Assembly: GCA_030699445.1 (NCBI GenBank)
Contig: JAUYMO010000015.1
Span: 1-16,516, forward strand
Length of the DNA stretch: 16,516 bases
Reading direction: 5' to 3'
Origin: Candidatus Giovannonibacteria bacterium
GTDB taxonomy: Bacteria > Patescibacteriota > Minisyncoccia > UBA11713 > 2-01-FULL-45-33
Shown in pieces: positions 215-15,699 of the stretch. The notes under the pieces were generated by a model, which was not told the DNA's origin, ran no database searches, and saw only the letters and a program-made list of their open reading frames with translations. The position numbers and the translations under genes are program-made. Each line of letters starts with the position of its first letter. Positions within the stretch are counted from its first letter, which is position 1.

Positions 215-227
215 ATAAGCATTTTTG

Positions 228-1103
228 ATGAATAAACAATTTTTAGCTCTCCTGTTATTTTTGGTTTTGGGGGCTTACTTGATTTACGGCATTTTTTTCG
301 GGAATGCCCTGCAGGCGGTGCCGGTTTACGCGCCGAATAAAATAGCGGAGCCGGCTAAAAGTCCGCTAAAAAAAGAAATTGCGGCACCGCCTCCGCTGAA
401 AGCCCAAAAAGAAGCGCCGACCGCCGAGATAATTTTGACCGCCGACGGCGTTCTTTCCCGGACCAACAAAGAAAGGGAAAAAGCCGGTTTGCCGGAGCTG
501 GCGCCGGATCAAAAACTTACCGCTTCGGCCTTGGCCAAAGTCCGCGATATGTTTAAAAATCAATATTTCGCGCATGAATCGCTCGCTGGCAAGGGAGCTG
601 GCGACTTGGCGGAAAAAGAAGGCTACGAATTTATTATAATCGGCGAAAATCTCGCTTTAGGAAATTTTGAAGGAGATAAGGCGCTGGTTGACGCTTGGAT
701 GGCGAGCCCCGGGCACTGCGCCAATATTTTGGGCGCGCGTTACAAAGAAATCGGCATCGCCGCGGGGCGGGGGATGTTTGAGGGGCGGGAGACATGGCTC
801 GCGGTTCAGCACTTCGCGCTTCCTTTGTCGGCTTGCCCCGGGCCGGATGAAAATTTAAAAATCGGCATAGAATCTTTTGAGGCGCAAATTAATAATTTAA
901 GTATTCAGGCATCCGCTCTTAAAGCCGAGCTTGAATCAGAAAAGCCGCAAAACAGAAATGAATACGAGGCCTACAACGCGAAAGTTGACGATTACAACGC
1001 CATGGCCCAACAGATGAATTCTTTGATTGACCAGGTAAAAAACATTATTCCGGTTTACAATCAGCAAGTAAAAATATTTAACCAATGCGCCGGAGCAAAT
1101 TAA
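228..1103 (+). CDS. Membrane-anchored CAP/SCP (PR-1, YkwD-like) domain protein with a C-terminal coiled-coil tail
   Basis: This is ORF 225-1103; the ATG at 228 directly follows the TTG used by the track. It has an N-terminal hydrophobic helix (FLALLLFLVLGAYLIYGIFF). The CAP-domain core is LSRTNKEREKAGLPEL...AKVRDMFKNQYFAHES...GENLA...LVDAWMASPGHCANILGARYKEIGIAA. The last ~90 aa are heptad-like and rich in Q/N/E. Confidence 0.8.
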   Translation: MNKQFLALLLFLVLGAYLIYGIFFGNALQAVPVYAPNKIAEPAKSPLKKEIAAPPPLKAQKEAPTAEIILTADGVLSRTNKEREKAGLPELAPDQKLTASALAKVRDMFKNQYFAHESLAGKGAGDLAEKEGYEFIIIGENLALGNFEGDKALVDAWMASPGHCANILGARYKEIGIAAGRGMFEGRETWLAVQHFALPLSACPGPDENLKIGIESFEAQINNLSIQASALKAELESEKPQNRNEYEAYNAKVDDYNAMAQQMNSLIDQVKNIIPVYNQQVKIFNQCAGAN

Positions 1104-3124: not shown

Positions 3125-3379
3125 ATGAATAATTGGTTTTATGGTTCATACGGCCATTGGGCCAGCCCCTTTTGGGGAGGTTTCGGCGTGGGTTTTTTGG
3201 CGCCGATTTTATTGATTTTGATTGTCTGGAGCTTATACTGGAAAGCGCGAGCCTTGTGGCGCGCCGCCAGAAACGGGGACAAAGCTTGGTTCATCGTTTT
3301 GATTTTGGCGCAAACTCTCGGCATTCTGGACATTCTCTATCTCTATGTTTTCAGCAAAAAATCCGGGGAGCAGAAATAA
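3125..3379 (+). CDS. Small two-helix membrane protein, DUF5652-like
   Basis: The 84-aa ORF contains ILLILIVWSLYWKARALWRAARNGDKAWFIVLILAQTLGILDILYLYVFSKK. I recognise this W-K-x-x-A-L-W-x-A-A-R ... T-L-G-I-L-(D/E)-I-x-Y-L pattern as DUF5652. The overlapping ORF 3133-3459 is an alternative frame. Confidence 0.7.
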   Translation: MNNWFYGSYGHWASPFWGGFGVGFLAPILLILIVWSLYWKARALWRAARNGDKAWFIVLILAQTLGILDILYLYVFSKKSGEQK

Positions 3380-9111: not shown

Positions 9112-9495
9112 ATGCTTTTAGTAAAAACAAAAATCGGACCGAGTAAGATAAATGGCATCGGGCTTTTCACAGATCAATTTATTCCAAAAGAAACTCTTGT
9201 GCAAAAATTTATGCCAGGATTTGATTTGGAGATTTCTGAGAATGATATACCAAACTTGTCCGAACCGGCGCGCGAACAATTTCTTAAATACGCTTATAAA
9301 AACAAGGGCGGATATTATATTCTTTGTTTTGATGATACTAGATTTCTTAATCATGCGGATAATCCAAATTTAATAAGCAATGATTCCGATGAAGAAATTG
9401 ATATTGCGGCTAGAGATATTCAAAAGGGAGAGGAACTCACGGTAAATTACAAAGAATTTGACACAGATTTTGATTACAAAATGGGCATTCATTGA
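9112..9495 (+). CDS. Minimal SET-domain protein (putative protein-lysine methyltransferase)
   Basis: The 127-aa product carries the three SET signatures. These are the GxG AdoMet loop (KINGIGLFT), RFLNHADNPN (the R-F-x-N-H-x-x-x-P-N pseudoknot motif) and GEELTVNY (the E-E-L-T-x-x-Y catalytic Tyr). Confidence 0.75.
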   Translation: MLLVKTKIGPSKINGIGLFTDQFIPKETLVQKFMPGFDLEISENDIPNLSEPAREQFLKYAYKNKGGYYILCFDDTRFLNHADNPNLISNDSDEEIDIAARDIQKGEELTVNYKEFDTDFDYKMGIH

Positions 9496-10635: not shown

Positions 10636-12174
10636 TTATATTATTAGGAAAGCCCACCAAGGGGTTTTTTCGCTGATGACCTCGCCGGTTTCGGCGTTAA
10701 TAAAAAGTTCAACTTCCATTTTGGCCGGTATTAAAAACAAAATTCTTGCGCGCTTCTCTACTTTTACTTCATAAAAATGATTGTTAAAAGCAGGCTTAAT
10801 ATCTGTGATTGAAACAAAGTTTTTATTTTCCAGAAGTTTTTGCGAAATTTCAGATTCAGTTTTAATCACAAGAGGTTTTATTTTAACATCTTCTGTTTTT
10901 GGCAGCTCGGTTTGGATTTTTTGAATTGGCGAGATTGGGAGTGGCGCCGGAGGCGAAGGAATTATGGTTTTAGCTGAAGGCGTTGGGGAGGTTTGTTTTG
11001 CGGCTGGCGCCGGCAGCGTTGTCGGCATTGGCGCAGGAGGGGCAACGGGTGGAATGACTGGCGGAGTGATGGGAGCCGTGGCAGCCGCAGCCGGAGGCTT
11101 TATCACAATGGTTATGCTTTTCCCGCGCGTTGCGTCATAAGTCCCGGCAGTTTTTGAAGGAAACAGGGAGATATTCACCGCCTGATTGGTTTGGCTTTTA
11201 TTTTGAAAATAGAGTTTTAAATTGCCGTTCGCTGTTAAAGAATCGCTAAAAGCCAGTTTGTCGCAAGGCAAAATAGAGCTCGGATTTTTTGATGATGTTG
11301 CCGAAACAGATTCAACGCAGAATATGCTGATATTAGCCCCCTTAGCATTAGTTGTTGCCCAATTCAAAGTTACGGGCTCGCCGTAATTTGCCAATGTTGT
11401 TGAAGCTGCAAAATAAGTTACCTCCGGATCCGGCAATATATCGGAAGCAATGGTTACGGTAATATTCGCGGCGTGCGTCGCGTCGTAACTTTTTGGAGAG
11501 ATAGCCGGCAGCAAGGTAAATTGCAGAGGAACGGCTTCGGTTAAGGAATTATAAAAATTTAAAGCCAAAGTTCCCGAAGGCGCGAGGTCGCTTGTAAAAA
11601 CCGGTTTTCCGCAGGGCATGGTTCCGGTAAATGAAGCGGAAGTAACACGGATTCCTTCTTTGCATTCAATTTGCAGATTAACTCCGTCAACGCCCGCGGC
11701 GGATTGCCATGATAAAACCGCCGGTTTTTCAGGCAGTGTGGTTTCTGGAGAAGCGGAAAATTTTATAATCGGCTGGGCGAGAGCCGCTACTGCCAATGTC
11801 GCGTCTTTGCTTCCGGCGCCATAATCTTGGCCCGATGCGTTTTTCGGCGTAAGCGTAGCGGTTATAACGCGGGAAAACCCCGATGTATTATAAACATAAA
11901 AAGTGAGCAGGTCGTTGACTTTAGCGGTAGTTGAAATTTTATTGCCGCAGCTGAACGCGCTTCCGCTGAAATATTTAAATTTAATGCCTGTGTAGCATGG
12001 AATTATAAATGAATATCCTCCGGCTTCCTGCAATTGCCAGGCGAAGCTCGCGACATCTCCGGAAGCAATGGAGGCGGGAGAGACAACAAAAGTGGTAACG
12101 GAAGGATTTTGAGCGAAAGCGAAAAACGGCAGCGCGAATAATGTAAAAAGCGCGATTTTTAGCGCGAGCTTCAT
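10636..12174 (-). CDS. Secreted surface protein: signal peptide, three Ig-like repeats, Pro-rich linker and a PepSY-like C-terminal domain
   Basis: The signal peptide is MKLALKIALFTLFALPFFAFA|QNP. Three ~105-aa repeats (aa 25-129, 135-242, 250-358) each have a conserved W, two Cys and a terminal (Y)DAT...I/V-x-I. A ~58-aa P/A/T-rich linker follows. The C-terminus FYEVKVEKRARILFLIPAKMEVELFINAETGEVISEKTPWW resembles PepSY (YEV...D/N-A-x-T-G-E-V). Confidence 0.8.
   Translation of the reverse strand: MKLALKIALFTLFALPFFAFAQNPSVTTFVVSPASIASGDVASFAWQLQEAGGYSFIIPCYTGIKFKYFSGSAFSCGNKISTTAKVNDLLTFYVYNTSGFSRVITATLTPKNASGQDYGAGSKDATLAVAALAQPIIKFSASPETTLPEKPAVLSWQSAAGVDGVNLQIECKEGIRVTSASFTGTMPCGKPVFTSDLAPSGTLALNFYNSLTEAVPLQFTLLPAISPKSYDATHAANITVTIASDILPDPEVTYFAASTTLANYGEPVTLNWATTNAKGANISIFCVESVSATSSKNPSSILPCDKLAFSDSLTANGNLKLYFQNKSQTNQAVNISLFPSKTAGTYDATRGKSITIVIKPPAAAATAPITPPVIPPVAPPAPMPTTLPAPAAKQTSPTPSAKTIIPSPPAPLPISPIQKIQTELPKTEDVKIKPLVIKTESEISQKLLENKNFVSITDIKPAFNNHFYEVKVEKRARILFLIPAKMEVELFINAETGEVISEKTPWWAFLII
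11101..12102 (-). repeat. Three tandem ~105-codon intragenic repeats (Ig-like modules) within the 512-aa gene
   Basis: Unit starts align as VTTFVVSPASIASGDVASFAW / IIKFSASPETTLPEKPAVLSW / VTYFAASTTLANYGEPVTLNW. Unit ends align as SKDATLAV / SYDATHAANITVTI / TYDATRGKSITIVI. The Cys pairs are C60/C76, C171/C188 and C286/C304. Confidence 0.65.
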
Positions 12175-12181
12175 GCCGGCG

Positions 12182-12493
12182 CTAGGACGGAGTTAAAATC
12201 GGAGTCAAATTTTGGCTTGGGCAAGACGAGGTAAAAGGAAGAAGAGACGGACTGGTTCCGAAAACAGTCCTGTAAATCGCGAACACAAGTCCCCACATCG
12301 CCAGCATCACAAAAAGCCCGAAAAGTCCGTAGGTAATGTATTTTCTTCCTTGCCCGACTTTCTTTTCGTCCTCGCCGGCAATGACGTATTGTATCACTCC
12401 CCATAAAAAAACAAGAGTGGCAACAATAAACAAAAGACTGGTCAATTGTTTTATCACGACTACGATATTGCAGATTATTGTTGAGACAGTCAT
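12182..12493 (-). CDS. VirB2/TrbC-like two-helix mini-pilin paralogue (P4, no signal peptide)
   Basis: The core is LLFIVATLVFLWGVIQYVIAGEDEKKVGQGRKYITYGLFGLFVMLAMWGLV, read as helix, charged A-G-x-D-E loop, G-K, then a G-L-x-G-L helix. It starts 2 nt after the P3 stop. The tail is rich in Ser, Pro and Thr. Confidence 0.7.
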   Translation of the reverse strand: MTVSTIICNIVVVIKQLTSLLFIVATLVFLWGVIQYVIAGEDEKKVGQGRKYITYGLFGLFVMLAMWGLVFAIYRTVFGTSPSLLPFTSSCPSQNLTPILTPS

Positions 12494-12495
12494 AT

Positions 12496-12759
12496 TTATT
12501 TAAAGAAATTTTTTAATATTGTGATGATTGCTTCAACGGAAATCATAATTAAAAGCCCCAGCAACCCCCAAATCATATGGCTTTTTCCTTTTGTCCGCGC
12601 GTCTTCATTTGCGGCTCCGGCGATAAACTCCACCACGCCGTAAAGAAATACCACCGCGCCCAAAACCAAAAGCAAATAAGTAATCGGGTCTAAAATGGAT
12701 TGCTGAATGGTTTTGATTAAATCGTCAACTGTTCTGGCGTATGCTACGGCAATCATCAC
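12496..12759 (-). CDS. VirB2/TrbC-like two-helix mini-pilin paralogue (P3, vestigial signal-peptide end)
   Basis: The core is YLLLVLGAVVFLYGVVEFIAGAANEDARTKGKSHMIWGLLGLLIMISV. The N-terminus MMIAVAYA|RTVDD aligns with the last residues of the P2 signal peptide (LFAYA|ADV), but the rest of that peptide is missing. Confidence 0.7.
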   Translation of the reverse strand: MMIAVAYARTVDDLIKTIQQSILDPITYLLLVLGAVVFLYGVVEFIAGAANEDARTKGKSHMIWGLLGLLIMISVEAIITILKNFFK

Positions 12760-12771
12760 TTTGTTTTAGAA

Positions 12772-13128
12772 TTAAGGCGATGGCGGCACATCTCCAGGGC
12801 CAGGCGGTATAACTCCTCCCCCTACTCCGAATTGGGAAACCAGCGCGCGGACCACTCCCCAGATGGCTACCATAAGGAAAAGGCCTATCAGCCCGAAAAT
12901 TATAAAGCTCTTGCCCTCTTTCAATTTGTCTTCGTCACCGCCCGCGGTAATGTATCTGATAACGCCCCAAAGAAAGACAATGGTGGCGATAATCATCAAT
13001 ATGGGAATAATCCGGTTCAAAATGATTTGCGTTTGGTAAAGGATTGAAATCACATCCGCGGCGTAGGCGAAAAGTGGCGCCAGCAATGCCGCGGAAACAG
13101 AAATTTTAACCAGTGTTTTTATGTTCAT
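12772..13128 (-). CDS. VirB2/TrbC-like two-helix mini-pilin paralogue (P2, with signal peptide)
   Basis: The signal peptide is MNIKTLVKISVSAALLAPLFAYA|AD. The core is ILMIIATIVFLWGVIRYITAGGDEDKLKEGKSFIIFGLIGLFLMVAIWGVV. The tail is Gly/Pro-rich (GVGGGVIPPGPGDVPPSP). Confidence 0.75.
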   Translation of the reverse strand: MNIKTLVKISVSAALLAPLFAYAADVISILYQTQIILNRIIPILMIIATIVFLWGVIRYITAGGDEDKLKEGKSFIIFGLIGLFLMVAIWGVVRALVSQFGVGGGVIPPGPGDVPPSP

Positions 13129-13196: not shown

Positions 13197-13538
13197 TCAC
13201 AGCTTGCCCGCGAAATCTATAACGGCGGTGGCGAGGGCGGACGCTCCCACCAAAATAGCCGTGCCTAAAATCGTCCAGTAAAATGTGTCTTTGGCTGTTG
13301 TTAATTGCTTTTCATCGCCTCTCGCGGTCACAAAAAGCAGCCCCGCGTAAATCAGAAAAACCGTCGCTATCGGAAGGCCTATTTTGGTAACCAAATCCGC
13401 GAATTTCTGGACCACCTGTTGGAAGCTGGATGTGCTCCCGAGCGGATTTGGAAAAGTTTCGGCTGAAGCCAAAAACGGCAGAAATATTAAGGCCGGAAGC
13501 AAAGAAAAAATGAAGGTTTTTATTTTGTTTATCCGCAT
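13197..13538 (-). CDS. VirB2/TrbC-like two-helix mini-pilin paralogue (P1, with signal peptide)
   Basis: The signal peptide is MRINKIKTFIFSLLPALIFLPFLASA|ETFPNPLG. The core is GLPIATVFLIYAGLLFVTARGDEKQLTTAKDTFYWTILGTAILVGASALA. Confidence 0.7.
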   Translation of the reverse strand: MRINKIKTFIFSLLPALIFLPFLASAETFPNPLGSTSSFQQVVQKFADLVTKIGLPIATVFLIYAGLLFVTARGDEKQLTTAKDTFYWTILGTAILVGASALATAVIDFAGKL

Positions 13539-13552
13539 GGATTTATTATAAC

Positions 13553-14416
13553 TTATTTTAATGGAAAAGAAACATGGATATGATTAGTAGGCGACTTGCA
13601 ATTGTTTACCGGGGCTCCTCCTTGCGACTCGCAACGCGCGACCCCGCCGAATGAAGAAGAAGAAACTTTTGCCAGAAGGACGAGAAAAGCGCCCTGTGAT
13701 TTATTGTTTTGTGCCGGCACAATATCCACTACCGGTTGCCCCGGACCATGAGTTTGGTGGCCGGCTTCCGTTCCGCCTGTAACCACAAACGGACAAACAT
13801 TCCAGCACTCCGTTTGTAATTGGATAAGTTTTGTTGCAACATATTTTGGCAATCCTTTTAGGCTTGTGCAGGTAGTAGCTTGCTGGGTGGGGCAATCGCC
13901 TTTATTGATTGGAACTCCATTGTTGAGCAAAAGCTGTCTGGCTTCTTCGTCCGTCTGAAAAACATCTCCGGCTGGTGGTTTTTCTGTGATGGGCGGAATA
14001 ATTGGCGTAATCGGAGTGTCAATCGGCTTCTTGCAGTCTTGTATTTTTTGCCAGGCGAAAGTGGGCGAGCCCGAAACCAAAGTGTTTATGATGGTATCCA
14101 CTATCAGCCAGCCGCCGAAAGCAATGAAAATTCCGACGATTGAAGATGTGATAACTTTTTTGCCAGTTTCAATGCGATTTGGATTTCCGGCGCTGGTTGC
14201 CCAGACAATTCCGCCGATGAGAAGCGCGAGTACCAAAACCGGAAACGCCAGACCGGTCAGCGGTTTTACTAAAAAATCCACGATGTTTTTTGCCAAAGTC
14301 CAAAGGTCGCATGGCGTGCAATATTCCCCTTTGCCCAAACCGCAAGTTACAAGGCCGTCCGCCGCGAACGCCGGAAAGGCAAGAAATAAAAGATTAAAAA
14401 TTAAAAATTTTTTCAT
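13553..14416 (-). CDS. Fusion protein: signal peptide, pilin-like two-helix module, Pro/Thr/Ile linker and a Cys/His-rich C-terminal globular domain
   Basis: I place the start at MKKFLIF (ATG 14416-14414). This forms an ATGA overlap with the stop of the upstream solute-binding gene, whereas the track start at 14539 would overlap that gene by 127 nt. The N-terminal module is AFA|ADGLVTCGLGKGEYCTPCDLWTLAKNIVDFL...LIGGIVWATSAGNPNRIETGKKVITSSIVGIFIAFGGWLIV. The linker is PIDTPITPIIPPITEKPP. The C-terminal ~137 aa have 7 Cys plus VTGGTEAGHQTHGPGQPVVDI and a terminal NHIHVSF. Confidence 0.75.
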   Translation of the reverse strand: MKKFLIFNLLFLAFPAFAADGLVTCGLGKGEYCTPCDLWTLAKNIVDFLVKPLTGLAFPVLVLALLIGGIVWATSAGNPNRIETGKKVITSSIVGIFIAFGGWLIVDTIINTLVSGSPTFAWQKIQDCKKPIDTPITPIIPPITEKPPAGDVFQTDEEARQLLLNNGVPINKGDCPTQQATTCTSLKGLPKYVATKLIQLQTECWNVCPFVVTGGTEAGHQTHGPGQPVVDIVPAQNNKSQGAFLVLLAKVSSSSFGGVARCESQGGAPVNNCKSPTNHIHVSFPLK

Positions 14417-15699
14417 ATTGCTTGGAGCCTGGCTTTGGCTTTTTCCAATGAATCCCGCAGGGTGAACCTCCCCACGGCCATGTCTTCTATTAAAGTCCTG
14501 AAAATTTGGTCGGTAAGCGCGGGGTCGGGATTTGGCCAAAGTTTAAGCGCCAAAACCGAATTCGCGAAAACCGAGCGCGTAGATTCTTTTTGATAAACCG
14601 GCAGGACATCGCGCCGAAGGGAAACATTTCCGGTTTTATCCGCGTAACTTGCCGAATTTTCCGCGCTTGATAAAAATTGTATGAATTGCCAGGCCTGCGT
14701 TTGGTTGCGCGACGCTTTTGGCACGGCCAGGGCGAAAATTTCCCCGCCGGTTACGGGGCGCGCGGCGCCGGCTAATTGCGGTAAAAGCGCTGCGGAAAAA
14801 GACAGGTGCGCGTTTTTATTTTTTATTTCATTGTATTCCGAAATTTTACCGAAATACATGGCAAGTTTGCCATTTGTAAAAGCGTCTTGTGCTTCGGGCA
14901 ACGCGCTAGACCAGCTTTGTGAATTTTTTTTGGGATTCGCGAAATCGGTTATGAATTGCAGGGAAGATTCAGCGGGGTGCAAAGTAACCTCGCCGATGTT
15001 TATTGGTTCGTTCAGCGCGACTTCTCCCGAATCGTTTATAATTTTTTCTCCGGATTGCAAAAAAAGCGTTGTTAAAATAAGCGGTGCGTTTTCTATATTT
15101 CCCGCCCGGCCCAGAGCCGCGCCGGATATGACGATATTTCCTGAAGAATCTTTTTTTGTGAGCTTCGCGGCGACGTTTAAAAATTCATCCCAGGTTTTGG
15201 GAGGCGAAGCGATGAAATCTTTTGTGAAAAGGTCGTTATTTATAAAAAGCGCCAAGGGGTCGGCATAAAACGGAACACCGATAACTTCTTTTTTCGCGCC
15301 TAGAAACGCCGAGGCCGCTTCAACATATTGCTGGCTGATTTCCCGTTCGGTAAATAAAATCGCGGGAGCAGTTGAGAGCTTGTCTTTGTGTTTTTTAAGA
15401 AAATCGGAAGGGAAAACGACAATGTCCGGTGCTTCGCCGCGGGCGATGGCGTTTAAAAAATCGCTTTCAAAATTCGCGATATCTTTTTTTGAATATTTCA
15501 CGTCAAAATTTTGATGGGCCTCGGCGTATTTTAAAACCAAATCTCTTACGGCGCCCTCGTCGCCAAACCCCCACATAGTAATGCTCGCTCCGCCCTCTCC
15601 GCCGGTTTTTAATCCGGGCACGATTCCGGTAACGATTAAAACGGCTATGACCACTATAACGATTGCCCCTCCTATTATTATGATTTGCAGTTTGTTCAT
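14413..15699 (-). CDS. Extracellular solute-binding protein (ABC-type, family 1-like) with an N-terminal membrane anchor
   Basis: The TM anchor is IIIIGGAIVIVVIAVLIVTGIV. The SBP_bac_1/8-like pattern includes ITMWGF...APDIVVFPSDFL...VIGVPFYADPLALFINNDLF...PPKTWDEFLNVAAKLTKKD...GKLAMYFG...ALLPQ...TGGEIFALAVPKASRNQTQAWQFIQFLSS. Confidence 0.8.
   Translation of the reverse strand: MNKLQIIIIGGAIVIVVIAVLIVTGIVPGLKTGGEGGASITMWGFGDEGAVRDLVLKYAEAHQNFDVKYSKKDIANFESDFLNAIARGEAPDIVVFPSDFLKKHKDKLSTAPAILFTEREISQQYVEAASAFLGAKKEVIGVPFYADPLALFINNDLFTKDFIASPPKTWDEFLNVAAKLTKKDSSGNIVISGAALGRAGNIENAPLILTTLFLQSGEKIINDSGEVALNEPINIGEVTLHPAESSLQFITDFANPKKNSQSWSSALPEAQDAFTNGKLAMYFGKISEYNEIKNKNAHLSFSAALLPQLAGAARPVTGGEIFALAVPKASRNQTQAWQFIQFLSSAENSASYADKTGNVSLRRDVLPVYQKESTRSVFANSVLALKLWPNPDPALTDQIFRTLIEDMAVGRFTLRDSLEKAKARLQAI

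What the first reader, a model, noticed from the sequence alone, without database searches (positions are those of the whole stretch)
13553..14416. Pilin-like module fused to a Cys-rich domain with an H-x2-H-x7-D ... H-x-H signature (possible LAS/hedgehog-type zinc hydrolase fold)
The protein has three parts. The first is a complete signal peptide plus two-helix pilin-like module with an N-terminal C-G...C-x-x-C-D-L motif (aa 1-117). The second is a P/T/I-rich linker. The third is a ~137-aa domain with 7 cysteines. This last domain contains TSLKGLPKYVATKLIQLQTEC..VCPFVVTGGTEAGHQTHGPGQPVVDI and ends in PTNHIHVSFPLK. A His followed about 7 residues later by Asp, plus a C-terminal H-x-H, recalls the zinc ligand arrangement of LAS enzymes (lysostaphin, D-Ala-D-Ala carboxypeptidase, hedgehog). 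The block '(S/T)GG..(x)..H..G..VD(I/L)' resembles the 'SGYR...S-x-H-x-x-G-x-A-x-D' block of peptidase M15. If this reading holds, a cell-wall-active or target-cell-active enzyme is tethered to a pilin scaffold. That would be analogous in logic, but not in sequence, to VirB1-type lytic factors. The hydrolase assignment is only an inference from motif spacing.
Basis: partly seen in the sequence, partly recalled or inferred. Interest (0 to 1): 0.7.

Follow-up and report, generated by a model that had tools for sequence, protein, structure and literature searches.

The report
Pilin-tethered zinc cell-wall peptidase candidate
An ultra-small (Patescibacteria/CPR) bacterium encodes a secretion-system pilin fused to a previously uncatalogued domain that is predicted to fold like the zinc peptidases that cut bacterial cell walls. 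This suggests these bacteria build their wall-cutting tool directly into a pilin subunit.

Summary
The gene lies on the minus strand (13553-14416) and encodes 287 aa: a signal peptide, a VirB2/TrbC-type two-helix pilin module (Pfam T4SS_pilin, above its cut-off), a Pro/Thr/Ile linker and a 137-aa Cys-rich C-terminal domain (CTD). The CTD matches no Pfam, NCBIfam or PDB sequence.

The CTD belongs to a large family: 532 clusters at 50% identity. H223, D231 and H281 are invariant, and H279, H220 and E217 are at least 96% conserved. These four His are the only histidines in the protein.

Two independent AlphaFold models (pLDDT 92 and 84) find almost only LAS-fold proteins among their top matches: Hedgehog N-domain, LdcB/VanY, VanXY and phage M15 peptidases. 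The scores are modest (TM about 0.5, E 0.002-0.2).

Domain partners point to peptidoglycan:
- SLT+CTD fusions.
- Pilin+SLT genes adjacent to pilin+CTD genes in other CPR genomes.
- A pilin+Peptidase_M15_3 fusion.
- Actinobacterial PG_binding_1×2+CTD proteins.

Best reading: a zinc peptidoglycan peptidase anchored outside the membrane by a pilin module. It is the first gene of a five-pilin array and probably supplies the VirB1-like wall-opening function. Catalysis, metal binding and site geometry were not tested. I rate it a new variant of a known kind, interest about 0.65.

The parts
13553..14416 (-). Whole gene: 287-aa pilin-CTD fusion protein plus stop codon. It is identical to NCBI 'MAG: pilin [Candidatus Giovannonibacteria bacterium]'.
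14360..14416 (-). Sec-type signal peptide (aa 1-19, MKKFLIFNLLFLAFPAFA|A; an AxA-like cleavage site is inferred).
   Evidence: Hydropathy. The cleavage site is inferred from the sequence, not predicted with a dedicated tool.
14285..14359 (-). Extracytoplasmic N-terminal segment of the mature pilin, carrying C25, C33 and C36 (C-G...C-T-P-C-D-L).
   Evidence: C25 is at least 90% conserved in the near family.
14093..14275 (-). Pfam T4SS_pilin (VirB2/TrbC-like) match, aa 48-108. It covers two TM helices (about aa 45-78 and 87-115) around the basic loop SAGNPNRIETGKK.
13967..14032 (-). Pro/Thr/Ile-rich linker (aa 129-150), directly after conserved C128.
13556..13966 (-). C-terminal domain (aa 151-287). 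It is an uncurated family with a predicted LAS (Hedgehog/DD-peptidase-like) fold and three probable disulfides (C175-C183, C204-C208, C262-C273).
13721..13780 (-). Family signature TGGTEAGHQTHGPGQPVVDI (aa 213-232). H223 and D231 are the putative Zn ligands. E217 and H220 are conserved family-specific residues.
13565..13585 (-). C-terminal strand NHIHVSF (aa 278-284), the H-x-H motif. H281 is the putative third Zn ligand (Asp in some relatives) and H279 the putative catalytic His.
13197..13538 (-). Small VirB2-like pilin paralogue 1 (113 aa), 14 nt downstream of the fusion gene.
   Evidence: TrbC 1.2e-11, T4SS_pilin 1.6e-11
12772..13128 (-). Small pilin paralogue 2 (118 aa).
12496..12759 (-). 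Small pilin paralogue 3 (87 aa).
12182..12493 (-). Small pilin paralogue 4 (103 aa).
14413..15699 (-). Membrane-anchored solute-binding protein (SBP_bac_1/8). Its stop codon overlaps the fusion gene's ATG. The order is conserved in L001, L005 and L006.

Best explanation
The gene encodes an extracytoplasmic zinc-dependent peptidoglycan peptidase of the LAS (lysostaphin / D-Ala-D-Ala peptidase / Hedgehog) fold. It is carried on the C-terminus of a VirB2/TrbC-type pilin module.

Proposed mechanism:
- After Sec export and signal-peptide removal, the two pilin helices sit in the membrane with the basic loop in the cytoplasm.
- The roughly 22-residue Pro/Thr-rich linker and the disulfide-stabilised CTD therefore lie outside the membrane, within reach of the wall.
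- H223, D231 and H281 bind Zn2+. H279 (first His of H-x-H), together with H220 and E217, completes the active site.
- The enzyme cuts peptide stems or cross-links.

It is the first gene of an array with four plain pilin paralogues. I propose it is the array's built-in 'VirB1-like' factor, opening the cell's own wall locally where the VirB2-like filament or T4SS assembles. It could act as a membrane-anchored subunit or as a minor subunit of the filament.

Shown: the architecture, the size of the family, residue conservation, the predicted fold class, the domain partners and the synteny. Inferred: metal binding, catalysis, the substrate, the topology and which wall is cut.
For: Architecture and pilin identity.

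The CTD is a large family that almost always follows a pilin module. There are 532 clusters at E<=1e-3. 152 of 166 carry the pilin module, and in 151 of those 152 the pilin precedes the CTD.

A LAS-type residue set is conserved: invariant H223, D231 and H281, with H279, H220 and E217 at least 96% conserved.

Fold evidence:
- AF2 model with pLDDT 92.1 and pTM 0.87.
- PDB hits: Hedgehog N-domain (probability 0.98), LdcB/VanY (TM 0.52-0.53) and VanXYc.
- BFVD hits: phage peptidases and 'Peptidase M15A', best E=1.8e-3.
- A second model, of the divergent subfamily, has Hedgehog as all 8 top hits.

Sequence bridges:
- A2 profile versus PDB: only Hedgehog, aligned on the Zn motif.
- Subfamily with 'SDHYQGKAADI...THLH': the top 23 PDB hits are all Hedgehog.
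- That subfamily versus M15_3: hhalign P=1.9e-4.
- That subfamily versus the main family: hhalign P=3.5e-6, probability 88%. It also occupies the same syntenic slot.

Peptidoglycan associations:
- SLT+CTD proteins.
- Pilin+SLT genes directly adjacent to pilin+CTD genes in Adlerbacteria and Saccharibacteria loci.
- A pilin+Peptidase_M15_3 protein.
- Kitasatospora and Streptomyces PG_binding_1×2+CTD proteins. In one Streptomyces locus the neighbouring gene is PG_binding_1×2+Peptidase_M74, itself a LAS enzyme.

An extracytoplasmic location is supported by co-varying Cys pairs.

Literature: Patescibacteria carry VirB2-like pilin arrays, mostly without a VirB1 homologue (PMC12102498). The pilins are essential in S. 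epibionticum (PMC10633639).
Against: - No curated model (Pfam M15*, M23, M74, HH_signal; NCBIfam) is matched.
- Every LAS link is marginal: Foldseek E 0.002-0.5 and TM 0.35-0.54.
- The broad family profile A5 and the actinobacterial profile A8 lose all sequence signal to LAS proteins.
- The spacing is H-x7-D rather than H-x6-D.
- The Hedgehog/VanX-type general-base Glu has no conserved equivalent. E263 is Glu in only about 37 of 133 sequences.
- The best structural neighbour, the Hedgehog N-domain, is itself of disputed catalytic status.
- No VirB4, VirB6 or VirD4 gene lies in the 16.5-kb window or within 10 kb in the orthologous loci. A link to a T4SS machine is therefore not shown here.
- Model coordinates could not be inspected.
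Confidence: 0.55

Rival explanations
1. Host-directed weapon. The fusion protein is polymerised into, or at the tip of, a VirB2-like pilus. The LAS domain is displayed on the filament surface and digests the cell wall of the host or prey bacterium during epibiotic attachment, rather than the producer's own wall.
For: - The chemistry evidence is the same as for the best explanation.
- A pilin module is conserved in 152 of 166 family members, rather than a simple TM anchor.
- Paired pilin+SLT and pilin+CTD genes would give a complete muralytic kit on one filament.
- The family is shared between Saccharibacteria and related CPR lineages and Actinobacteria, the known hosts of Saccharibacteria.
- Pilins and the T4SS are essential for epibiotic growth (PMC10633639).
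- From my own knowledge, the C-terminus of F-type pilins is exposed on the pilus surface.
Against: - No evidence here that this protein enters a filament.
- A 170-aa C-terminal load on every subunit would be hard to pack, so at best it would be a minor subunit.
- Giovannonibacteria hosts are unknown.
- The short linker fits a reach to the producer's own wall equally well.
Confidence: 0.2
2. Non-catalytic LAS-fold module. The CTD keeps a structural or ligand-binding zinc site, as the Hedgehog N-domain does. It acts as an adhesin or receptor-binding head on a pilin stalk and recognises peptidoglycan stem peptides or another surface ligand without cutting them.
For: - The top fold neighbours are Hedgehog signalling domains.
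- There is no conserved general-base Glu.
- The canonical substrate-binding Arg of 'SGYR' is replaced by 'TGGTE'.
- The last His is replaced by Asp in many relatives.
Against: - The full H/D/H-x-H set plus H220 and E217 is conserved over very deep divergence, which is typical of active sites.
- The domain is repeatedly partnered with a true lytic enzyme (SLT) and with PG_binding_1, which already supplies binding.
- His-to-Asp is a conservative change for a metal ligand.
Confidence: 0.12
3. Released enzyme. The pilin module acts only as an export and maturation carrier. The CTD is cleaved off in the linker during pilin maturation and works as a free secreted hydrolase. VirB2/TrbC pilins are C-terminally trimmed in RP4 and Ti systems, and VirB1* is released (my own knowledge).
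For: - The exposed Pro/Thr-rich linker lies directly after conserved C128.
- CTD-only secreted proteins exist in Actinobacteria.
- There is precedent for C-terminal processing of this pilin family (my own knowledge, not tested).
Against: - No TraF-like maturation peptidase gene lies next to the array.
- Strict conservation of the fusion across hundreds of lineages suggests the tether matters.
Confidence: 0.08
4. Not a LAS domain at all. The fold resemblance and the motif are convergent, or a modelling artefact, and the CTD has an unrelated function such as a metal- or redox-active Cys/His domain.
For: - All similarity scores to LAS proteins are sub-significant at database scale.
- Broader profiles lose the signal.
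Against: - Two independent models and three independent sequence comparisons all land on the same superfamily and align the same residues.
- The domain partners are peptidoglycan-related.
Confidence: 0.05

Closest known systems
Peptidase M15 family (VanY/LdcB, VanX/VanXY, Pfam Peptidase_M15_3 and phage L-Ala-D-Glu / D-Ala-D-Ala peptidases)
   Same: - Predicted fold neighbours: 4jid/4mph LdcB with TM 0.52-0.53, plus VanXYc and phage 'Peptidase M15A'.
- A His...Asp pair and a C-terminal His-containing strand are aligned by hhalign with P=2.3e-4.
- Extracytoplasmic and cell-wall-associated contexts.
   Different: - No M15 Pfam model is matched.
- 'SGYR' is replaced by 'TGGTE'.
- The spacing is H-x7-D.
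- It has H-x-H, not the E-x-x-H or D-x-x-H of VanX/VanY/T5-type enzymes.
- It has three disulfides and is fused to a pilin.
Hedgehog N-terminal domain and bacterial Hh/DD-peptidases (PMC6027127)
   Same: - Best fold hits for both models.
- The only PDB sequence-profile hits, aligned on 'GHHSEESLHYEGRAVDI'.
- H-x-H at the end of the last strand ('AHIHCSV' versus 'NHIHVSF').
   Different: - Scores are not significant at database scale.
- There is no Ca2+-site acidic cluster.
- The E177 equivalent is not conserved across the family.
- The domain is not a signalling ligand but part of a prokaryotic membrane protein.
VirB1-type T4SS-associated peptidoglycan hydrolases (VirB1, PrgK, TraG of pIP501; cited in PMC12102498)
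   Same: - The logic is the same: a muralytic activity encoded at the head of, or next to, pilin/T4SS genes to open the wall.
- Bifunctional SLT+peptidase designs are mirrored by the SLT+CTD proteins and the pilin+SLT / pilin+CTD gene pairs.
   Different: - There is no SLT/GH23 or CHAP domain in this protein.
- It is covalently fused to the pilin itself.
- No T4SS ATPase lies nearby in this window.
VirB2/TrbC conjugative pilins and the VirB2-like pilin arrays of Patescibacteria (PMC12102498, PMC10633639, PMC12857230)
   Same: - T4SS_pilin Pfam match above its cut-off.
- Signal peptide plus a two-helix hairpin.
- Member of a tandem array of 5 divergent pilin genes.
- Such arrays of 2-11 genes are described for 383 assemblies (PMC12102498).
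   Different: - About 170 extra C-terminal residues carrying a folded domain.
- Four conserved extracytoplasmic Cys flank the hairpin.
- I found no description of such pilin-enzyme fusions in the papers searched.
Zn DD-peptidase/MepA-type LAS enzymes with PG_binding_1 domains in Actinobacteria (Peptidase_M74; Streptomyces albus G DD-carboxypeptidase is from my own knowledge)
   Same: - Actinobacterial homologues of the CTD have the same PG_binding_1×2 + catalytic-domain layout.
- In one Streptomyces locus such a homologue sits next to a PG_binding_1×2+M74 gene.
   Different: - The CTD is not detected by the M74 or M15 models.
- The actinobacterial branch ends in H-W-D instead of H-x-H.
- RefSeq annotates these proteins only as 'hypothetical' or 'peptidoglycan-binding'.
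Modular type IV pilins (for example Streptococcus sanguinis PilB/PilC; my own knowledge, not tested here)
   Same: The concept is the same: a pilin module with a functional globular module grafted onto its C-terminus.
   Different: The pilin superfamily is different (type IV pili versus VirB2/TrbC T4SS pilins). The grafted modules there are adhesins, not putative hydrolases.

Membership tests
T4SS_pilin / TrbC-VirB2 pilins (PF18895, PF04956) | Match to the curated family model above its gathering score. | tested here: met
   PF18895 scores 32.0 bits against a 26.6 cut-off, E=1.3e-7, over aa 48-108. PF04956 scores 26.3 bits, just under its 27.9 cut-off.
T4SS_pilin / TrbC-VirB2 pilins (PF18895, PF04956) | Signal peptide followed by two hydrophobic helices joined by a short basic loop. 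| tested here: met
   Hydropathy peaks at aa 4-24, 45-78 and 87-115, with the loop SAGNPNRIETGKK.
T4SS_pilin / TrbC-VirB2 pilins (PF18895, PF04956) | Small protein consisting of the pilin module only (about 70-130 aa). | tested here: not met
   The protein is 287 aa, with 172 residues following the hairpin. The four neighbouring paralogues are 87-118 aa.
T4SS_pilin / TrbC-VirB2 pilins (PF18895, PF04956) | Encoded with T4SS machinery (VirB4, VirB6 and others). | tested here: not met
   No such gene lies in the 16.5-kb window or within ±10 kb in L001, L005 and L006. Only pilin paralogues and housekeeping genes are present. The rest of the genome was not examined.
T4SS_pilin / TrbC-VirB2 pilins (PF18895, PF04956) | Polymerises into an extracellular filament. 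| not testable with these tools
   This needs microscopy or biochemistry.
LAS / Hedgehog-DD-peptidase zinc hydrolases (M15, M74, M23, Hh-N) | LAS fold: a central antiparallel sheet carrying the ligands, packed by helices. | tested here: met
LAS / Hedgehog-DD-peptidase zinc hydrolases (M15, M74, M23, Hh-N) | H-x(6)-D (or H-x3-D in M23) first metal motif (PMC6027127). | tested here: not met
   This protein and the main subfamily have H223-x7-D231, one residue longer. The syntenic 'bridge' subfamily (SDHYQGKAAD) and the actinobacterial branch (SHGNGYKVD) have the canonical H-x6-D. His and Asp are invariant.
LAS / Hedgehog-DD-peptidase zinc hydrolases (M15, M74, M23, Hh-N) | H-x-H motif on the last strand. 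| tested here: met
   H279-I-H281, with H281 in 137/137 and H279 in 133/137 sequences. It lies on a predicted strand, residues 131-135 of the model. The motif is H-x-D in distant relatives.
LAS / Hedgehog-DD-peptidase zinc hydrolases (M15, M74, M23, Hh-N) | Significant match to a curated family model or a solved LAS protein by sequence. | tested here: not met
   There are no Pfam or NCBIfam hits for the CTD. The best PDB profile hits are Hedgehog at E=0.09-0.7. hhalign against a pilin+M15_3 pair gives P about 2e-4. Broader profiles give nothing.
LAS / Hedgehog-DD-peptidase zinc hydrolases (M15, M74, M23, Hh-N) | The three ligands converge on one Zn site, and the protein binds Zn and hydrolyses peptide bonds. 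| not testable with these tools
   Model coordinates are not exposed.
VirB1-like T4SS muralytic factors | Lytic transglycosylase (SLT/GH23) catalytic domain. | tested here: not met
   This protein has no SLT match. SLT occurs in relatives as SLT+CTD and in adjacent pilin+SLT genes.
VirB1-like T4SS muralytic factors | Encoded with, and required for, pilus or T4SS biogenesis. | tested here: inconclusive
   It is the first gene of a conserved five-pilin array, but no T4SS core genes are nearby. The functional requirement cannot be tested here.

The most novel reading that the evidence does not exclude
VirB2-like pilins of Patescibacteria are a modular display platform. Paralogues carry different muralytic heads: this LAS-like domain, SLT lytic transglycosylases and M15_3 peptidases. 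These paralogues co-assemble with plain pilins into a T4SS filament that enzymatically drills through the host bacterium's cell wall. This would explain how these wall-bound epibionts reach host cytoplasm or nutrients, and why most of them lack a separate VirB1.
Probability: 0.2. Interest if true: 0.85.

Novelty: new variant of a known kind. Interest (0 to 1): 0.65.

Why it matters
Patescibacteria make up a large share of bacterial diversity and live attached to other microbes. Their T4SS and VirB2-like pilin arrays are essential in the one system tested (PMC10633639), but their function is unknown. A recent survey noted that most genomes with VirB2-like pilins have no recognisable VirB1 wall-opening enzyme (PMC12102498).

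A large, unannotated LAS-like family is almost always fused to these pilins, and it is flanked in other lineages by pilin+SLT fusions. This gives a concrete and testable answer: the wall-cutting activities are grafted onto pilin paralogues.

The finding also defines a new zinc-peptidase-like domain family with at least 532 clusters. The family is also present in cultivable Streptomyces, Kitasatospora and Nonomuraea, fused to PG_binding_1, which makes the biochemistry directly accessible. I found no description of a VirB2-family pilin carrying an enzymatic domain.

Tried and rejected
- Word-indexed homologue search with the CTD alone found nothing. The full-length query and the exhaustive search were needed.
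- A word-indexed search with the M15_3 domain of P0024 returned only one protein, so no deep M15_3 profile could be built.
- The broader CTD profile (A5, 51 sequences) gave no PDB hit and only a trivial hhalign match to M15_3.
- The actinobacterial profile A8 gave only a spurious ribosomal-protein hit. The sequence link to LAS therefore rests on the 'bridge' subfamily alone.
- Model coordinates are not exposed, so ligand distances could not be measured.
A six-sequence alignment worked, but its single search pattern [VLI]TGGTEAGH biases the taxa recovered.
- No homologue was found in the phage collection, using either the CPR or the actinobacterial domain.
- The promoter and terminator scan showed fewer or no more sites than shuffled controls and was uninformative.
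- I rejected the 328-aa TTG-start ORF (13553-14539) as the gene, because the extension overlaps the SBP gene and homologues start at the ATG.
- I considered a mobile-element or conjugative context and rejected it for this window. The neighbours are IF-2, RbfA, UppS, tRNAs, a sigma factor and HtrA.
Full report
**1. What is there**

The finding's coordinates hold a minus-strand gene. The ATG is at 14416 and the stop codon at 13555-13553, giving 287 aa. The mechanical ORF list extends it to a TTG at 14539. That extension overlaps the upstream solute-binding-protein gene, whose stop codon overlaps the ATG (ATGA). The same 4-nt overlap occurs in orthologous loci.

The protein is identical to an NCBI entry named 'MAG: pilin [Candidatus Giovannonibacteria bacterium]', so the window comes from a CPR/Patescibacteria genome. 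The rest of the window is ordinary chromosome: IF-2, RbfA, UppS, an ECF-type sigma factor, HtrA, eight tRNAs and others.

**2. Anatomy**

- *N-terminal module.* There are three hydrophobic stretches, aa 4-24, 45-78 and 87-115. They fit a Sec signal peptide followed by two transmembrane helices around a basic loop (SAGNPNRIETGKK).
- *Pilin identity.* Pfam T4SS_pilin matches aa 48-108 above its gathering score (32 versus 26.6 bits). TrbC/VirB2 falls just below its own.
- *Cysteines around the hairpin.* C25, C33, C36 and C128 flank the hairpin on what should be the outer side.
- *Linker.* A Pro/Thr/Ile linker spans aa 129-150.
- *Histidines.* The protein has only four His, and they are exactly H220, H223, H279 and H281.

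**3. The CTD is a large, uncurated family**

The CTD has no Pfam, NCBIfam or PDB sequence match. An exhaustive HMMER search found 532 cluster representatives at E<=1e-3 and 81 at E<=1e-10.

Among the 166 sequences retrieved and re-scored:
- 152 also carry the pilin module.
- In 151 of those 152, the pilin module precedes the CTD.
- The CTD usually ends the protein.

Conservation is striking:
- Over 131 full-length members, C183, H223, D231 and H281 are invariant. C175, G214, G215, T216, E217, H220 and H279 are at least 90% conserved.
- Over 166 members: H223 165/166, D231 166/166, H281 137/137, H279 133/137.
- C262/C273 and C204/C208 appear or disappear together. With the near-invariant C175/C183 pair, this suggests three disulfides and an extracytoplasmic location.

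**4. Fold**

An AlphaFold2 model of aa 149-287, built with a 20-sequence alignment, is confident: pLDDT 92.1 and pTM 0.87. Its order of secondary-structure elements is helix, helix, strand (FVVTG), loop with H220/H223, strand (VVDIV), helix, strand, strand (HIHVS).

Foldseek results:
- *PDB.* The list is led by Hedgehog N-domains (6rmg_B E=0.018, probability 0.98; 3ho5_H TM 0.49). LdcB/VanY-like carboxypeptidase (TM 0.52-0.53) and VanXYc follow.
- *BFVD.* The hits are phage peptidases, including 'Peptidase M15A', with a best E of 1.8e-3.
- *Second model.* A model of a divergent subfamily (P0005 CTD, pLDDT 84) gives Hedgehog N-domains as all eight top PDB hits, then VanXY.

**5. Sequence links to LAS**

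- The 20-sequence profile hits only Hedgehog proteins in the PDB (E about 0.55). 'hqtHgqGkavvDi' aligns with 'SLHYEGRAVDI', the Zn-ligand motif.
- hhalign against a pilin+Peptidase_M15_3 protein (P0024, M15_3 E=3.3e-8) aligns H223, D231 and HIH with its H, D and HLH at P=2.3e-4.
- The signal comes mainly from a 'bridge' subfamily (P0005, P0008, P0010, P0015, P0016). Its motif is TGDHSxNSDHYQGxAADI...THLH, with the canonical H-x6-D spacing.
- The bridge profile's top 23 PDB hits are all Hedgehog, at E 0.09-0.6. Its hhalign P against M15_3 is 1.9e-4.
- The bridge subfamily is homologous to the main family. hhalign gives P=3.5e-6 and probability 88% over 109 columns. The main-only HMM gives per-sequence E of 1e-9 to 5e-6.
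- The bridge subfamily occupies exactly the same syntenic slot: methyltransferase, SBP, pilin-CTD, four pilins.
- Broader profiles (A5, A8) lose the LAS signal entirely.

At the sequence level this is therefore a remote, bridged relationship. It is not membership of any curated family.

**6. Domain partners and context**

- *SLT+CTD.* Two family members lack the pilin and instead carry an SLT lytic transglycosylase N-terminal to the CTD (P0062, P0071).
- *Adjacent pilin+SLT genes.* In CPR genomes recovered by a genome scan, the gene directly next to pilin+CTD is a T4SS_pilin+SLT fusion in Adlerbacteria (L022) and Saccharibacteria (L024, L038).
- *Pilin+M15_3.* P0024 is a pilin fused to Peptidase_M15_3.
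- *Actinobacterial relatives.* The same scan showed the domain is not confined to CPR.
  - Nonomuraea, Microbispora, Streptosporangium, Streptomyces and Kitasatospora encode secreted proteins matching the CPR-built HMM. At database-scale Z, E is 1e-10 to 1e-17 over nearly the whole profile.
  - A tblastn search of plasmids also found a homologue on a Deinococcus plasmid.
  - Some are PG_binding_1×2+CTD (PG_binding_1 E=3.3e-35).
  - In one Streptomyces locus the adjacent gene is PG_binding_1×2+Peptidase_M74, which is itself a LAS enzyme.
  - RefSeq calls these proteins 'hypothetical' or 'peptidoglycan-binding'.
  - In this branch, and in some CPR members, the last His is Asp (H-W-D), a conservative change for a metal ligand.
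- *This window.* The fusion gene heads an array with four small pilin paralogues. The order methyltransferase, SBP, pilin-CTD, four pilins is conserved in three other genomes. No VirB4, VirB6 or VirD4 lies within reach.

**7. Mechanism**

The best-supported reading is a Zn-dependent peptidoglycan peptidase held outside the membrane by a VirB2-like pilin module. H223, D231 and H281 would be the metal ligands and H279 the catalytic His of the H-x-H motif, as in M15A, M74, M23 and Hedgehog (PMC6027127 for the motif definition). H220 and E217 would be family-specific active-site residues replacing the 'SGYR' Arg.

Three observations favour a built-in VirB1-like, self-wall-opening role for assembly of the VirB2-like structure:
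- The gene heads a pilin array.
- Pilin+SLT partners exist.
- Most Patescibacteria with VirB2-like pilins lack VirB1 (PMC12102498).

I put this at about 0.55. The more exciting alternative is display on the filament to attack the host wall, at about 0.2. The remaining rivals are a non-catalytic Hedgehog-like binding head (0.12), release of the CTD by linker cleavage (0.08) and a non-LAS function (0.05).

The architecture, conservation, fold class and associations are shown. Metal binding, catalysis, substrate, topology and target wall are inferred.

**8. Comparison with known systems and novelty**

- *What it works like.* It resembles an M15/M74-type LAS peptidase combined with VirB1 logic.
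- *LAS membership.* It fails sequence membership of every curated LAS family. It deviates in spacing (H-x7-D) and in the 'TGGTE' block.
- *Pilin membership.* It passes the T4SS_pilin model but not the 'small pilin' definition or the 'within a T4SS locus' criterion here.
- *Prior description.* Searches of the literature found VirB2-like pilin arrays in Patescibacteria and their essentiality (PMC12102498, PMC10633639, PMC12857230). They found no description of pilin-hydrolase fusions or of this domain. The searchable library is incomplete, so prior description elsewhere cannot be excluded.

I rate it a new variant of a known kind: a new LAS-like domain family in a new pilin-fused architecture. 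Interest is 0.65.

Noticed in passing
window 14413-15699 (-), junction at 14413-14416: A membrane-anchored solute-binding protein (SBP_bac_1/8) has a stop codon that overlaps the pilin-CTD start (ATGA). The order methyltransferase, SBP, pilin-CTD, four pilins is conserved in L001, L005 and L006, yet no ABC permease or ATPase lies nearby. An orphan SBP coupled to a pilin array is unexplained. It might bind released wall fragments.
   Followed up: partly
L022:1510-2697, L024:508-1644, L038:8443-9438: T4SS_pilin+SLT (lytic transglycosylase) fusion genes lie immediately adjacent to pilin+CTD genes in Adlerbacteria and Saccharibacteria MAGs. This means a VirB2-like pilin module carries a well-known muralytic domain.
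   Followed up: partly
P0017, P0018, P0020; L074:110-1114; L017:8726-9451; L015:23-874; L025:11804-12772: Other VirB2-like pilins carry different, unannotated C-terminal domains of 100-200 aa, for example '...CHQxxTCVD...EHFSIY'. The pilin module looks like a general carrier for extracytoplasmic cargo domains in CPR.
   Followed up: no
L047:8445-9428 and L047:9200-10390; L081; L053; plasmid hits H1-H15: Actinobacteria (Streptomyces, Kitasatospora, Nonomuraea, Microbispora and others) and one Deinococcus plasmid encode secreted homologues of the CTD. Some have two PG_binding_1 domains. In one Streptomyces locus the homologue lies next to a PG_binding_1×2+Peptidase_M74 gene. RefSeq annotates them only as hypothetical or peptidoglycan-binding proteins.
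   Followed up: partly
window 14030-14359 (-), residues C25, C33, C36, C128: Four conserved cysteines flank the pilin hairpin on its presumed outer side. They are absent from the four small pilin paralogues. They could staple the N- and C-terminal ends of the pilin module by disulfides, which recalls the head-to-tail cyclisation of T-pilin/TrbC. This is speculation.
   Followed up: no
window 10636-12174 (-): A 512-aa secreted protein lies directly downstream of the pilin array. It has several repeated beta-rich segments, a long Pro/Thr/Ala-rich stretch and a weak PepSY-like C-terminus (E=5.8e-4). It is absent at this position in L001. L005 has an unannotated 443-aa gene there.
   Followed up: no
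window 13553-14539 (-): The mechanical ORF call starts at a TTG 123 nt upstream of the real ATG and overlaps the SBP gene. Automated annotation from the longest ORF would add 41 spurious residues.
   Followed up: yes
L003/L012 (Moraniibacteria), pilin-CTD at L003:10001-11098: In this genome the pilin-CTD gene (P0021) has a long Cys- and Gly-rich N-terminal extension. It lies about 9 kb from dnaA, rnpA and yidC. PMC12102498 reports that this region often holds the Patescibacteria T4SS.
   Followed up: no
window 9112-9495 (+), 3125-3379 (+), 225-1103 (+): A bacterial SET-domain protein (E=6e-12), a DUF5652 membrane protein and a secreted CAP/SCP-domain protein with a coiled-coil-like tail are encoded elsewhere in the window. 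They are unrelated to the finding.
   Followed up: no
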